A stretch of DNA of 64,000 nt, taken from the NCBI GenBank assembly GCA_029564765.1, contig JAKQPK010000075.1:4603-68602 (forward strand), in the 5' to 3' direction. Below, piece by piece: positions 37,875 to 39,574 of this stretch; within the stretch, counting starts at the first letter, position 1; each line of letters begins with the position of its first letter. The notes under the pieces are model-generated. The model was not told the origin of the DNA and searched no databases. It saw nothing but the letters and a program-made list of their open reading frames with translations. The translations under genes and the position numbers were made by a program. The DNA is from Candidatus Omnitrophota bacterium. Its GTDB lineage: Bacteria > Omnitrophota > Gorgyraeia > Zapsychrales > Aceulaceae.

Positions 37875-37966
37875 AAAACCTATATAAAAAGCGTTTAACG
37901 ACTGAAAAAAGTTGAAATATTTTCAGTAGATATCAAAATAATATTTTTGAAGAAGGGTGCTAAGAA

Positions 37967-38086
37967 ATGAACGGTATAAAATTAGGAAATACTTTACGGA
38001 GATTGCGAAAGGATCGGCAATTATCGCTTTCGGAGGTCTCGAAGGTATCCGGAACACCCCAAACGTTTCTATGTAAGAATTTGTGA
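37967..38086 (+). pseudogene. Truncated XRE-type HTH gene remnant (39 codons) ending inside the direct repeat
   Basis: 'LRRLRKDRQLSLSEVSKVSG' resembles an HTH_XRE helix-turn-helix. The ORF ends after 39 aa within the repeat that precedes the transposase. Confidence 0.3.
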
Positions 38087-38117
38087 TTGTGTGAGTTACG
38101 ATAGAAGTGTCCTATGA
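38063..38117 (+). repeat. Direct repeat copy 1 (~55 bp), immediately 5' of and including the transposase ATG
   Basis: 'aaacgtttctatgtaagaatttgtgattgtgtgagttacgatagaagtgtcctatga' versus copy 2 at 39487-39539, about 90% identical. Confidence 0.7.
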
Positions 38118-38641
38118 CGGCGCAGCGAAGAGTGTATTACCGTCACGCGATTTATCATATTGTCTCACGTGGCAATAACAAGCAGAAGATCCTTGAGGGC
38201 GATCAAAACAAGACTTTGTTCATTGAAATCCTGGAAAAATATAAAAAGCGTTTTTCTTTCAAACTTTACGCTTTTGTTGTGATGGATAACCATATTCATC
38301 TTGTTGTTGAGGCAACGGACGTTCAGCCGATTTCCAGGATCATGCAGTCGATCCTGTTATCTTATAGCTGCCATTATCGCAATAAGACAGCATATGTCGG
38401 CCATGTTTGGCAGGGACGCTTTCGGAGCAGTCTGATCGAAGGGGAACAATATATTATCGAATGCATTAACTATATTCATCACAACCCTGTTAGGGCTAAG
38501 ATGGTCAGCTTGGCAACGGATTATTGCTGGAGCAGTGCGTGTTTTTATGATAACCTAGGCAACAGAGAAGTCAGTGATAGACTAGGTATTGACCGCTGGA
38601 CACTTCTACCAGAAGCCAATGAAAATAAAGAAGATAGATAG
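38114..38641 (+). mobile_element. IS200-like / REP-associated tyrosine transposase (RAYT, TnpA_REP; Y1 HUH transposase) gene
   Basis: 'HAIYHIVSRGNNKQKIL', HUH motif 'MDNHIHLVVE', 'WQGRFRSSLIEGEQY...INYIHHNPVRA' with the catalytic Tyr region. 175 aa. Confidence 0.8.
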
Positions 38642-38686
38642 AAACGCTTTGGGATTTTAAGAAGATAGATAGAAACGCTTTGGGAT
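38625..38686 (+). repeat. Tandem ~31-bp duplication spanning the transposase stop codon
   Basis: 'aagaagatagatagaaacgctttgggatttt' occurs twice consecutively. Confidence 0.6.
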
Positions 38687-38766
38687 TTTTGGTATCGTTA
38701 ATTTTTGTAACGAATAGAAAGTTACCCTATACAAAGAATTTGTGATAGGACATCGAGGGAGGAAAA

Positions 38767-39324
38767 ATGAAAAAACTTATTCTTGTATTAGCAGCAGTAG
38801 CATTGATTAGTGGATGTGCAACAGGATATCAGAGCAAGGGTCTCGCTGGAGGATTTACTGATACAAAGATTCAAGATGATATCTATAAAGTTAGATTTGT
38901 TGGAAATGGTTACTGCGGTTCAGATAGAGCAGAGGATTTTGCTTTGTTGAGATGTGCAGAACTTTCCTTAGAGAATGGATATAAATATTTTATTATAATT
39001 GATGAAAAATTAGAAACACAAACAACTTCAACAACCACTCCTGTAACAGCAAATACATATGGCAGAGTCAATATGTATGGTAACCAAGGCAGTTATTCAG
39101 GAACAACCTATTATTCTGGCGGAGAAACTTATACTTTTCATAAACCATCAGCAAGCAATACTATCAAATGCTTTAAGGATAAGCCGCAAGATTCAAATAT
39201 GATGGTATATGACGCTGAACAGATAAAACAGAACATACGAAAACAATATAAATTAGACGAAGAAGCAAAAGAAGAATCTGTTGAAGTAAAAACAGAAGCT
39301 CCAAAACCAACCCAGAATTTTTAA
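38767..39324 (+). CDS. Hypothetical lipoprotein (185 aa), low GC
   Basis: Lipobox 'LISGCATG', Thr/Ser-rich linker, RBS 'gggaggaaaaATG'. Lies inside the direct-repeat-bounded unit. Confidence 0.55.
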   Translation: MKKLILVLAAVALISGCATGYQSKGLAGGFTDTKIQDDIYKVRFVGNGYCGSDRAEDFALLRCAELSLENGYKYFIIIDEKLETQTTSTTTPVTANTYGRVNMYGNQGSYSGTTYYSGGETYTFHKPSASNTIKCFKDKPQDSNMMVYDAEQIKQNIRKQYKLDEEAKEESVEVKTEAPKPTQNF

Positions 39325-39486
39325 TGAACAAAGAACTCTCTTCCCAAAGACGAGAAGAATAAGTGAGATGCAGAAATGAACATCGATAGTTTAAACCTGA
39401 ACATACTTAAGGAAATTCTTGAATTACTAGAAGAAGTTGAGGAAAAGTGCCAACGGAGAGAAGCCACATTTGAGCATCCCAGAACG

Positions 39487-39539
39487 TTTCTGAATAAGTA
39501 TTTGTGATTGAGTGAGTTACGATAGAAGTGTCCTATGAA
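39487..39539 (+). repeat. Direct repeat copy 2
   Basis: 'gaacgtttctgaataagtatttgtgattgagtgagttacgatagaagtgtcctatga'. It is preceded by a small ORF whose C-terminus ('HPRTFLNKYL*') parallels the copy-1 ORF ('TPQTFLCKNL*'). Confidence 0.7.
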
Positions 39540-39574
39540 AAGTAGTGAAGTATGTTAAAATGTTAAATTAATTT

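What the first reader, a model, noticed from the sequence alone, without database searches (positions are those of the whole stretch)
37960..39540. RAYT/IS200-like Y1 transposase unit bracketed by ~55-bp direct repeats that each overlap the 3' end of a small ORF and a downstream ATG
A 175-aa HUH Y1 transposase (HxH 'NHIHLVVE', with the C-terminal Tyr region) is preceded by a ~55-bp sequence that recurs ~1.4 kb downstream (38063-38117 and 39487-39539, ~90% identical). The two copies are in the same orientation. Both copies begin inside short ORFs whose last ten codons are homologous ('TPQTFLCKNL*' / 'HPRTFLNKYL*') and both end with 'gtgtcctATGa'. The first upstream ORF looks like a truncated XRE HTH gene. 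The unit also contains a 31-bp tandem duplication at the transposase stop codon and a low-GC lipoprotein gene. It sits directly downstream of the RHS toxin/immunity pair, where insertion sequences and shuffled modules accumulate. Because the flanks are direct repeats, not inverted ones, this does not fit classical IS200/IS605 ends or REP/BIME doublets.
Basis: seen in the sequence. Interest (0 to 1): 0.58.

Follow-up and report, generated by a model that had tools for sequence, protein, structure and literature searches.

The report
RAYT transposase unit with repeat ends
A small single-strand-DNA transposase gene of the RAYT type lies between two 60-base inverted repeats, with a leftover third copy downstream. 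It is a new member of a known kind of bacterial repeat system, and its relatives usually sit just after RHS toxin genes.

Summary
A 61-nt direct repeat (38057-38117 / 39478-39538, 89%), an intact 175-aa Y1/HUH transposase and a perfect 31-nt tandem duplication at its stop codon are all present. The region is identical in three independent assemblies.

The true unit is therefore LE-RAYT-RE (38054-38689), the arrangement described for RAYT/TIRYT "TIRtrons". The downstream direct copy is a solo left end that still carries the ATG, which I read as a vestige of a second unit.

Each end has two boxes, CGTTTCT and AGAAGTGTCC, exactly 26 nt apart. A metagenome scan found 124 matches; 143 of 146 matches across all held sequence have that spacing. 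Viral contigs gave none. Of 49 head-to-head pairs, 29 are RAYT-less hairpin dimers (REPIN/MITE-like), 18 enclose a full RAYT, and one is a deletion intermediate.

The source is a Candidatus Omnitrophota MAG. The protein passes the NCBIfam RAYT model but not the IS200 model.

Verdict: a new member of a known kind.

The parts
38054..38113 (+). Outer box CGTTTCT at 38064-38070 and inner box AGAAGTGTCC at 38103-38112, 26 nt apart. The RAYT ATG follows one base later.
   Evidence: Exact match to the two-box pattern. nhmmer E=2e-9. 92% identical to the L005 LE, while the sequence just outside is ~45%.
38114..38641 (+). RAYT / TnpA_REP-like Y1 HUH transposase gene, 175 aa, intact. Motifs: HUH = NHIH, WQ, and catalytic-Tyr motif YIHHNP.
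   Evidence: Pfam Y1_Tnp 58.3 bits. NCBIfam REP_Tyr_transpos 85.5 bits, cutoff 80. H60, H62 and Y120 are invariant in 18 homologues. PDB match 4ER8 TnpA_REP.
38597..38658 (-). Right end (RE), an inverted copy of the same element. Inner box GGACACTTCT at 38598-38607 (codons WTLL of the RAYT) and outer box AGAAACG at 38640-38646. It overlaps the last 14 codons and the stop codon.
   Evidence: Exact two-box pattern match on the minus strand. nhmmer E=3e-9. Alignment to A in reverse complement. 93.5% identical to the L005 RE.
38659..38689 (-). Reiterated outer 31 nt of the RE, the second copy of the perfect tandem duplication 38628-38658 / 38659-38689.
   Evidence: family D4, 100%. Partial element hit at 38658-38687, E=0.0065. 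Present in 3 independent assemblies.
38712..38742 (+). Possible degenerate fragment of an LE (…CTATACAAAGAATTTGTGAT…). Weak evidence.
   Evidence: Local alignment to A only, score 27. Not detected by nhmmer.
39476..39538 (+). Outer box 39485-39491, inner box 39524-39533, then ATG at 39535-39537 opening a 7-codon ORF. Read as the vestige of a second RAYT unit.
   Evidence: Exact two-box pattern match. nhmmer E=2e-12. No RE and no RAYT homology downstream. Its outer 32 nt are 97% identical to the left arm of the L009 dimer.
37967..38086 (+). 39-aa ORF. The first ~29 codons are a weak XRE/HTH-like fragment and the last 10 codons are LE DNA read through to an internal TGA. Probably a gene remnant or not a gene.
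   Evidence: HTH_31 E=0.0025, below cutoff. No tblastn match in related loci.
39376..39507 (+). 43-aa ORF running into copy B. Its C-terminal homology to the 39-aa ORF is repeat DNA. Doubtful as a gene.
   Evidence: No Pfam or NCBIfam hit. No tblastn match in related loci.
38767..39324 (+). Low-GC CC0125/CC1285-family lipoprotein gene lying between the outer ends of the RE and of solo LE B. It is outside both elements and is variable cargo of the island.
   Evidence: NCBIfam 109 bits. GC 33-36%. Absent from L005 and L009.
36624..37874 (+). Context: the RHS C-terminal toxin region (after the core-end motif …NPVNITDPTGH, which ends at 36624) and the overlapping 101-aa BamE-like lipoprotein, presumed to be the immunity gene. 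Together these form the variable cassette that precedes the LE.
   Evidence: RHS homology to L005 stops at RHS aa 2422 and resumes at the LE.

Best explanation
The segment 38054-38689 is a compact RAYT/TIRYT unit (a 'TIRtron') in a Candidatus Omnitrophota chromosome.

Anatomy (shown):
- A 175-aa class-2 Y1/HUH single-strand-DNA transposase gene lies between two ~60-nt terminal inverted repeats.
- Its start codon abuts the left repeat and its last 14 codons lie inside the right repeat.
- Each repeat has an outer box (CGTTTCT) and an inner box (AGAAGTGTCC) exactly 26 nt apart.
- The outer 31 nt of the right end has been reiterated once.
- The downstream 'direct repeat' (39476-39538) is a third copy of left-end type that still carries the RAYT ATG.

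Interpretation of copy B (inferred): it is the vestige of a second unit whose gene and right end were lost. The low-GC lipoprotein gene between the two is ordinary island cargo lying outside both elements.

Mechanism (inferred by analogy with E. coli TnpA_REP and IS608 TnpA):
- Single ends do not fold on their own.
- A left and a right end can pair, outer box with outer box and inner box with inner box, around a 26x26-nt internal loop.
- The RAYT would recognise this folded single-stranded substrate.
- It would cleave and rejoin it through the HUH/Tyr site, and so mobilise RAYT-less LE+RE dimers in trans.
- Solo ends such as B would be immobile relics.

Status of each step: the anatomy, the family, the conservation of the ends and the derivation of dimers from RAYT units by internal deletion are shown. 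Binding, cleavage and mobility are inferred.
For: Protein:
- Pfam Y1_Tnp 58 bits.
- NCBIfam REP-associated tyrosine transposase above its cutoff, IS200 model below its cutoff.
- HUH and Y---NP motifs invariant in 18 homologues.
- The only PDB match is TnpA_REP, 4ER8.

Ends in the window:
- Three exact matches to CGTTTCTNNNTAW-N26-AGAAGTGTCC: LE +, RE -, B +. nhmmer E = 2e-9 to 2e-12, and no other copy in the 64 kb.
- The ends are more conserved than the gene. Window vs L005: LE 92%, RE 93.5%, RAYT CDS 79.5%, DEAD helicase 76.7%, sequence outside the ends ~45-50%.
- The inner box is kept in different reading frames (WTLLPE in the window, GDISD in L011). This argues for constraint at the DNA level.

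Family:
- The metagenome scan found 113 stretches with 124 matches. Of all 146 matches in held sequence, 143 have the 26-nt gap although 22-30 was allowed. Viral contigs gave 0 matches.
- Most matches have no RAYT within 400 bp.
- Of 49 head-to-head pairs, 29 have inner gaps of -16 to +24 nt and no RAYT. Another 18 have gaps of 480-600 nt and all contain a full RAYT. L137 (161 nt) is a RAYT internal-deletion intermediate, and the last pair (1075 nt) has no RAYT.
- Dimers fold as long hairpins with z = -2.3 to -6.7, whereas single ends give z near 0.
- The L009 dimer still carries RAYT C-terminal codons, TLLPEAYENKEDI*.
- Near-identical copies lie at different sites in a single metagenome, Ga0078972.

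Residency of the gene:
- The exact protein was read on 11 contigs. The 4 places shown have the same gene neighbourhood, and 7 further places were collapsed as similar.
- The syntenic slot RHS…AsmA-DEAD is shared with L005 and L009.

Literature: RAYT-like genes flanked by long TIRs that share GGGGWSAS, overlap the gene ends and form dimer families are described as TIRtrons (PMC3733652). The family's inner box read in reverse complement is GGGGACAC.
Against: - No dispersed copy lies in the 64-kb window outside this locus, and the copy number in the source genome could not be measured.
- The window's own inner boxes read AGGACAC and TGGACAC rather than GGGGACAC.
- Canonical REP features are absent: no GT[AG]G foot and no self-folding 20-40-nt palindrome.
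- In the relative L110, two RAYT copies identical over ~120 nt lie 2.3 kb apart. An identical LE also follows two different RHS genes. This looks more like an active IS than a domesticated single-copy RAYT.
- No empty site was found.
- There is no biochemical evidence.
Confidence: 0.8

Rival explanations
1. The block from copy A to copy B (RAYT + lipoprotein + small ORF) is one mobile or recombining unit bracketed by direct repeats, a new architecture distinct from RAYT/REP and IS200/IS605.
For: The two copies are 89% identical and in the same orientation. The DNA between them is low in GC.
Against: - An inverted copy lies at the RAYT 3' end, and LE-RAYT-RE is the unit that recurs in at least 21 loci.
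- In L005 and L009 only LE-RAYT-RE is conserved. The lipoprotein gene, ORF43 and copy B are absent.
- B differs from A about as much as A differs from its orthologue in another species (89% vs 92%). So B is not a recent duplication made by an insertion event.
Confidence: 0.04
2. Decayed composite element. Two directly repeated RAYT units once flanked the lipoprotein cargo (LE1-RAYT1-RE1-cargo-LE2-RAYT2-RE2) and could move it as a block. Unit 2 has since lost everything except LE2 and its ATG.
For: - B keeps the ATG and weak similarity for ~20 nt into the RAYT 5' coding sequence.
- L110 shows this layout intact: two RAYT copies in direct orientation flank an integrase fragment plus an orphan RHS toxin-immunity pair.
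- L005 and L206 carry two Y1_Tnp genes in the same island.
- The cargo is compositionally foreign.
Against: There is no evidence that any such composite has moved. In L110 the arrangement could equally come from two separate insertions or a segmental duplication. The cargo differs in every relative.
Confidence: 0.15
3. It is simply an autonomous IS200/IS605-type insertion sequence with its MITEs, not a domesticated RAYT. The unit copies itself, and the three ends in the window are debris from repeated insertions into a permissive island.
For: - The unit is compact (~605-720 bp) with sharp ends.
- L110 has identical duplicate copies, and an LE 100% identical over 104 nt follows RHS genes whose cores are only 79% identical.
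- Internal-deletion derivatives are typical of IS/MITE families.
Against: - The IS200 profile scores below its cutoff and the Y motif is Y---NP, not Y---Q (PMC6006769 Table 1).
- The ends are inverted repeats, not same-strand subterminal hairpins.
- The gene was found at one locus only.
- It occupies the same slot in three diverging lineages and has diverged in step with neighbouring housekeeping genes.
Confidence: 0.2
4. The RAYT unit is functionally tied to the RHS locus. It marks, and perhaps helps exchange, the distal boundary of the toxin-immunity cassette. It could do so as a conserved anchor for homologous recombination or through RAYT-made nicks.
For:
- Further cases: L110, L134, L148, L153, L169 and L203.
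- RHS-linked members lie on all major branches of the RAYT tree.
- The genes downstream differ between loci.
- Window vs L005: homology stops at RHS aa 2422 and resumes at the LE.
Against: - There is no element-like box at the RHS core/toxin junction or inside the cassettes.
- Orphan cassettes in L011 are not separated by elements.
- Some RAYT units lie elsewhere, after dnaE, a prismane gene or RND genes.
- The linkage could reflect a tolerated 'junkyard' site or hitch-hiking.
Confidence: 0.2

Closest known systems
TIRtrons / TIRYT (TIR-associated tyrosine transposases; Di Nocera et al. 2013, PMC3733652)
   Same: - A RAYT-like Y1/HUH gene is flanked by long terminal inverted repeats unrelated to GTAG REPs.
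- The TIRs overlap the gene ends.
- Many TIRs share the motif GGGGWSAS; this family's inner box in reverse complement is GGGGACAC.
- TIR copies occur elsewhere as singles, dimers and clusters.
   Different: - Most described TIRYTs fall in subclass 2.1 (~238 aa, with a C-terminal HTH domain; PMC6006769). This protein is 175 aa and has no such tail.
- The two-box end with a fixed 26-nt spacer is not stated in the passages I read.
- The same applies to the dimers that retain RAYT codons, the Omnitrophota host and the linkage to RHS.
REPIN-RAYT systems / REPtrons (PMC3116915, PMC3337134, PMC5581495; E. coli TnpA_REP structure PMC3479197)
   Same: - A class-2 Y1 transposase (Y---NP) is flanked by inverted copies of a repeat.
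- The repeat is dispersed mainly as ~120-nt hairpin-forming doublets lacking the gene.
- The gene sits at one syntenic locus and diverges in step with its neighbours.
   Different: - There is no GT[AG]G foot, and single units are not palindromic hairpins (z near 0). Structure arises only when LE pairs with RE.
- The gene lies inside the doublet rather than beside REPINs.
- Some relatives carry duplicated identical units.
TnpA_Y1 subclass 2.6 (Quentin et al. 2018, PMC6006769; Bertels group 5)
   Same: - The signature motifs match. Subclass 2.6 has NH[LIV]H / WQ / YIH[QN]NP; here they are NHIH / WQ / YIHHNP, with YIHNNP or YIHQNP in homologues.
- Length is 175 aa against a median of 179.
- That subclass is flanked by 'atypical secondary structures' with copies elsewhere in the genome.
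   Different: - Subclass 2.6 was described mostly in Bacteroidetes.
- Assignment here rests on motif comparison only. No phylogeny with reference members was made.
IS200/IS605 insertion sequences (IS608, ISDra2) and their miniature derivatives
   Same: The Y1/HUH catalytic core is shared. The unit is compact, and non-autonomous derivatives are formed by internal deletion.
   Different: - The IS200 profile scores below its cutoff, and the Tyr motif is Y---NP rather than Y---Q.
- The ends are inverted repeats, not same-strand subterminal hairpins.
- There is no tnpB.
H-rpt (ISAs1-family) elements in E. coli Rhs loci (from my own knowledge, not checked here)
   Same: A transposase-type element is habitually found at the distal end of Rhs loci.
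   Different: H-rpt encodes a DDE transposase, not a Y1/HUH enzyme. No comparable dimer family is known for it.

Membership tests
Y1/HUH transposase superfamily (Pfam PF01797) | Profile match above the gathering score | tested here: met
   58.3 bits against a cutoff of 23, covering residues 12-124.
Y1/HUH transposase superfamily (Pfam PF01797) | HUH motif and catalytic tyrosine present | tested here: met
   NHIH (H60, H62) and Y120 in YIHHNP, invariant in an 18-sequence alignment.
RAYT / TnpA_REP (class 2 TnpA_Y1) | Protein matches the RAYT model rather than the IS200 model, with Y---NP signature | tested here: met
   NF047646 scores 85.5 (cutoff 80). NF033573 IS200 scores 32.3 (cutoff 55). 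Motif is YIHHNP. The only PDB match is 4ER8 TnpA_REP, E=0.002.
RAYT / TnpA_REP (class 2 TnpA_Y1) | Gene flanked by copies of a repeat in inverted orientation | tested here: met
   LE 38054-38113 (+) and RE 38597-38658 (-). The same arrangement occurs in at least 21 loci.
RAYT / TnpA_REP (class 2 TnpA_Y1) | Flanking repeat is a canonical REP (20-40-nt hairpin with a 5' GT[AG]G foot) | tested here: not met
   Single copies fold no better than shuffles, z from -0.6 to +0.1. No conserved GTAG is present.
RAYT / TnpA_REP (class 2 TnpA_Y1) | Flanking repeat dispersed in many gene-less copies in the same genome | tested here: inconclusive
   The family has ~100 RAYT-free copies in metagenomes, and several near-identical copies within one metagenome. 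The window holds no copy outside the locus, and the rest of the source genome was not available.
RAYT / TnpA_REP (class 2 TnpA_Y1) | Single copy per genome, vertically inherited | tested here: inconclusive
   Only one locus was found for the exact protein. It occupies a syntenic slot and diverges in step with its neighbours. However, L110 has two identical copies 2.3 kb apart.
TIRtron / TIRYT (PMC3733652) | RAYT-like gene bounded by long TIRs unrelated to GTAG REPs, which may overlap the gene ends | tested here: met
   ~60-nt inverted ends. The RE overlaps the last 14 codons and the LE abuts the ATG.
TIRtron / TIRYT (PMC3733652) | GGGGWSAS motif in the TIR | tested here: inconclusive
   The family consensus inner box in reverse complement is GGGGACAC. 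The window's own copies read AGGACAC and TGGACAC. The motif's position within published TIRs could not be checked because the figure is not held.
TIRtron / TIRYT (PMC3733652) | TIR copies elsewhere as singles, dimers or clusters | tested here: met
   29 RAYT-less dimers, 92 unpaired copies, and clusters in L126, L143 and L199.
REPIN (PMC3116915) | Two inverted repeat units forming a ~100-nt hairpin that lacks the transposase | tested here: met
   Dimers are 106-145 nt and fold with z = -2.3 to -6.7. None lies in the window itself; the nearest is L009:2368-2473.
IS200/IS605 insertion sequence | TnpA_IS200 profile and Y---Q motif; subterminal hairpins at both ends on the same strand; multiple identical copies | tested here: not met
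   The profile scores below its cutoff. The motif is Y---NP. The ends are inverted repeats without their own hairpins. Copy number was not testable.

The most novel reading that the evidence does not exclude
In Omnitrophota this RAYT/TIR unit is a long-standing companion of RHS polymorphic-toxin loci rather than a random insertion. It sits co-directionally right after the toxin-immunity pair and forms the conserved distal boundary of the swappable cassette. The RHS core is the proximal boundary.

It may promote cassette exchange or capture in one of three ways:
- as a homology anchor for recombination;
- through RAYT-made single-strand nicks;
- as paired units flanking orphan cassettes, as seen in L110.

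If so, a domesticated Y1 transposase would be serving toxin diversification.
Probability: 0.18. Interest if true: 0.72.

Novelty: new member of a known kind. Interest (0 to 1): 0.42.

Why it matters
As found, this adds a well-delimited RAYT/TIRtron family from an uncultivated phylum, Omnitrophota.

- The ends have an unusually clear grammar: two boxes with a fixed 26-nt spacer.
- A visible series runs from the full unit, through an internal-deletion intermediate, to 106-145-nt dimers, at least one of which (L009) still carries RAYT codons. This is direct sequence evidence for the idea that REPIN-like doublets descend from the ends of a Y1 transposase unit.
- It also shows that the 'direct repeat' puzzle was an incomplete reading.

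The more consequential point is the strong and deep linkage to RHS toxin-immunity loci, seen in 7 of 10 sampled homologues. If this linkage is functional, it would connect single-strand-DNA transposases with polymorphic-toxin diversification.

Tried and rejected
- Hairpins in single 61-nt copies: none, z near 0 on both strands. A REP-like palindrome is rejected.
- Known RNA family: nothing at the locus at Rfam gathering scores. Nothing on seven element-bearing loci at E<=0.1 apart from an unrelated weak cspA hit.
- Promoters and terminators in 37500-39800: no more than in shuffles. No case for the LE as a promoter.
- The small ORFs as real conserved genes: no tblastn match in relatives. Rejected.
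- A further copy at 63117-63147 (77% match to the 31-nt unit): not supported by nhmmer even at E<=50.
- The 21-nt match between 36773-36793 (inside the RHS toxin region) and the RE end (family D6): it lies in a Gly-rich coding stretch, and the relaxed nhmmer scan of this interval gave no significant hit. Treated as chance.
- Empty sites: 0 of 156 flank-junction queries among the held loci.
- Element-like boxes at the RHS core/toxin junction or inside cassettes: none.
- Source species in genome contigs: absent, and the best RAYT match there is 59%. Genome-wide copy number therefore could not be counted.
- Viral contigs: no match to the two-box pattern.
- Literature on RAYT+Rhs and on Omnitrophota+Rhs: nothing relevant in the held library.
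Full report
**Observation.**
- A 61-nt direct repeat lies at 38057-38117 and 39478-39538, 89% identical. Its 38-nt core occurs only at these two places in the window, against zero expected.
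- Both copies end in GTGTCCTATGA.
- The two short ORFs end in homologous decapeptides.
- A perfect 31-nt tandem duplication (38628-38689) spans the transposase stop codon.
- The lipoprotein gene is low in GC and belongs to the CC0125/CC1285 family.
- The block follows a 2619-aa RHS ORF and an overlapping 101-aa BamE-like lipoprotein ORF.
- The region is 100% identical in three independent assemblies.
- The organism is a Candidatus Omnitrophota MAG, in which the gene is annotated only as "transposase".

**What was missed.** Low-stringency self-comparison shows that the whole ~60-nt element recurs in reverse complement across the 3' end of the transposase gene, at 38597-38658. The three copies share two boxes, CGTTTCT (outer) and AGAAGTGTCC (inner), exactly 26 nt apart.
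- In the left end (LE, 38054-38113) the inner box stops one base before the ATG.
- In the right end (RE) the inner box encodes residues WTLL, and the outer box lies just past the stop codon.
- The 31-nt tandem duplication is a reiteration of the outer part of the RE.
- The gene is therefore flanked by inverted repeats. It keeps the ATG, which opens a 7-codon ORF, but has no gene and no RE behind it.

**The protein.**
- It passes Pfam Y1_Tnp.
- It passes the NCBIfam equivalog for REP-associated tyrosine transposases (85.5 bits, cutoff 80) but fails the IS200 model (32.3 bits, cutoff 55).
- HUH (NHIH), WQ and YIHHNP are invariant or nearly so across 18 homologues.
- The only solved relative by sequence is E. 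coli TnpA_REP, 4ER8.
- Against Table 1 of Quentin et al. 2018 (PMC6006769), the motifs and length fit class 2, closest to subclass 2.6 (NH[LIV]H / WQ / YIH[QN]NP, 179 aa, "atypical secondary structures" with copies elsewhere in the genome).

**Relatives.**
- The identical protein was found only at this locus.
- Homologues at 83% (L005) and 72% (L009) lie in the same slot between an RHS gene and AsmA-DEAD genes. Both have the same LE and RE.
- Homology between the window and L005 is sharply bounded at the ends of the unit. LE is 92% and RE 93.5% identical, against 79.5% for the RAYT coding sequence, 76.7% for the DEAD helicase gene and ~45-50% just outside the ends.
- The inner box is conserved even where it is read in a different frame (WTLLPE vs GDISD). 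The ends are therefore constrained as DNA.
- The lipoprotein gene, ORF43 and copy B have no counterpart in L005 or L009, so the A-to-B block is not a unit.
- The small-ORF homology is only the repeat read in frame to an internal TGA. In L009 a gene stops 5 nt before the element.

**A large family.**
- A metagenome scan with CGTTTCTNNNTAW-N{22,30}-AGAAGTGTCC returned 113 stretches with 124 matches. Of all 146 matches in held sequence, 143 have a gap of exactly 26.
- The same pattern finds nothing in 2.9 million viral contigs.
- Most matches have no RAYT within 400 bp.
- With an nhmmer model, 49 head-to-head pairs were found. They fall into clean classes:
  - 29 pairs have inner gaps of -16 to +24 nt and no RAYT;
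  - 18 pairs have gaps of 480-600 nt, and every one contains a full RAYT;
  - L137, with a 161-nt gap, contains a RAYT with an internal deletion;
  - the remaining pair (L122, 1075 nt) has no RAYT.
- Seven further RAYT homologues fetched later are also flanked by element copies.
- Dimers (106-145 nt) fold as long hairpins: an outer stem, an inner stem and a 26x26-nt internal loop, with z = -2.3 to -6.7. Single ends do not fold.
- The L009 dimer still carries RAYT C-terminal codons.
- Near-identical copies occur at different sites within one metagenome.
- Rfam has no family for the element.

**Comparison with what is known.**
- This is the architecture that Di Nocera et al. 2013 (PMC3733652) named TIRtron/TIRYT. 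They describe RAYT-like genes flanked by long TIRs unrelated to GTAG REPs. These TIRs sometimes overlap the gene ends, share GGGGWSAS, and have moderately abundant copies in dimers or clusters. The family's inner box in reverse complement is GGGGACAC.
- It works like a REPIN-RAYT system (PMC3116915, PMC5581495), but the canonical REP features are tested and not met.
- It is not an IS200/IS605 element by profile, by Tyr motif or by end structure.

**Mechanism.**
- Shown: the anatomy, the conservation of the ends, and the derivation of dimers from units.
- Inferred by analogy with TnpA_REP and IS608 TnpA: the enzyme acts on single-stranded DNA in which an LE pairs with an RE. It then mobilises dimers in trans, and solo ends such as B are relics.
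- B differs from A about as much as A differs from its orthologue in L005. B's outer 32 nt are 97% identical to the left arm of the L009 dimer. This fits an old second unit in the island that decayed differently in the two lineages.

**A lead beyond the finding.** The RAYT unit is strikingly tied to RHS loci.
- Among ten homologues chosen only for contig length, seven have an RHS gene directly upstream, usually with one small gene between, and co-directional.
- Six more element-bearing metagenome loci show the same layout.
- RHS-linked members lie on all major branches of the RAYT tree, while the downstream genes differ between loci.
- Between the window and L005, homology stops at RHS residue 2422 and resumes at the LE.
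- In L110, two identical RAYT copies flank an integrase fragment plus an orphan RHS toxin-immunity pair.
- An LE 100% identical over 104 nt follows two RHS genes whose cores are only 79% identical.
- Against an active role: no element-like box lies at the RHS core/toxin junction or inside cassettes. Some units lie elsewhere.
- I found no report of this linkage in the held literature.

**Verdict.** This is a new member of a known kind (RAYT/TIRtron with REPIN-like dimers) and is ordinary in mechanism. Its end structure is unusually legible, and the RHS linkage deserves a dedicated survey.

Noticed in passing
window 29713-38113; loci L005, L009, L011, L110, L134, L148, L153, L169, L203, L205, L206, L210, L211 (and L034, L053 with other RAYT families): The layout RHS toxin gene, then (usually) one small presumed immunity gene, then a co-directional LE/RAYT unit recurs in many Omnitrophota loci. 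RHS-linked members lie on all major branches of the RAYT tree, and the downstream genes differ between loci.
   Followed up: partly
window 38628-38689; L097, L100, L105, L113, L131, L179, L182, L005:5915-5945 and others: The outermost 8-31 nt of the element is often tandemly reiterated, up to 4 times in L131. This occurs in 29 of 154 element ends, against 65 of 2000 random segments. The window's 31-nt duplication is one instance. The cause is unknown; it may be a by-product of end processing or of slippage.
   Followed up: partly
L110:1-3199 (read on the minus strand): Two RAYT copies identical over ~120 nt lie 2.3 kb apart in direct orientation. They flank a tyrosine-recombinase fragment, an orphan RHS C-terminal toxin and a BamE-like lipoprotein gene. 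Beyond these lie half an LE and tandem GTTCCGGGGACACGTACCG units.
   Followed up: partly
L005:7412-8729; L206:5537-6133; L009:975-1025: A second, different Y1_Tnp family (196-198 aa) shares the same RHS-distal islands. In L005 it has its own ~63-nt ends (GAAAACGTGCCAGGCAC…GGGACAGGGAG): an LE just upstream of the gene, an inverted RE, and an extra solo LE 613 nt upstream in direct orientation. This is the same pattern of direct LE copies plus an inverted RE as in the window.
   Followed up: no
L137:2268-2546: A RAYT unit with a ~350-nt internal deletion (LE + ~55 nt of the 5' coding sequence + ~80 nt of the 3' coding sequence + RE). It is intermediate between full units and RAYT-less dimers.
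   Followed up: partly
window 55748-55923, with 55326-55418 and 55930-56018: An 88-nt tandem duplication (97% identical) lies immediately upstream of a tRNA gene. A c-di-GMP-I riboswitch lies ~330 nt further upstream on the minus strand.
   Followed up: no
window 8707-8875, 28810-28871 and 29237-29298: An A-rich repeat family (AATTCAAAAGTCAAAA…) is present as inverted pairs. One 62-nt pair (71% complementary) lies ~400-900 nt upstream of the RHS start. It may be another small repeat element.
   Followed up: no
window 13713-13742, 21262-21291, 25647-25697; flanks of elements in L094, L136, L143: Short TAGT-rich repeats (AGTATTTAGTCGTTAGT…) recur in the window. Similar GTAGTTCGTAGTT… tracts flank element dimers in some metagenome loci.
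   Followed up: no
window 37569-37874; L009:1953-2366 and 2503-2898; L110:1443-1745: The small genes that follow RHS toxins, and those in the variable island, are often BamE/SmpA-like lipoproteins sharing a …W/FG.P… motif. This suggests a common immunity-protein fold in these Omnitrophota RHS loci.
   Followed up: no
L004 (Logan contig end at locus position 10544 = window 38657): One short-read assembly breaks 16 nt after the RAYT stop codon, inside the 31-nt duplication. These element ends can fragment assemblies.
   Followed up: no
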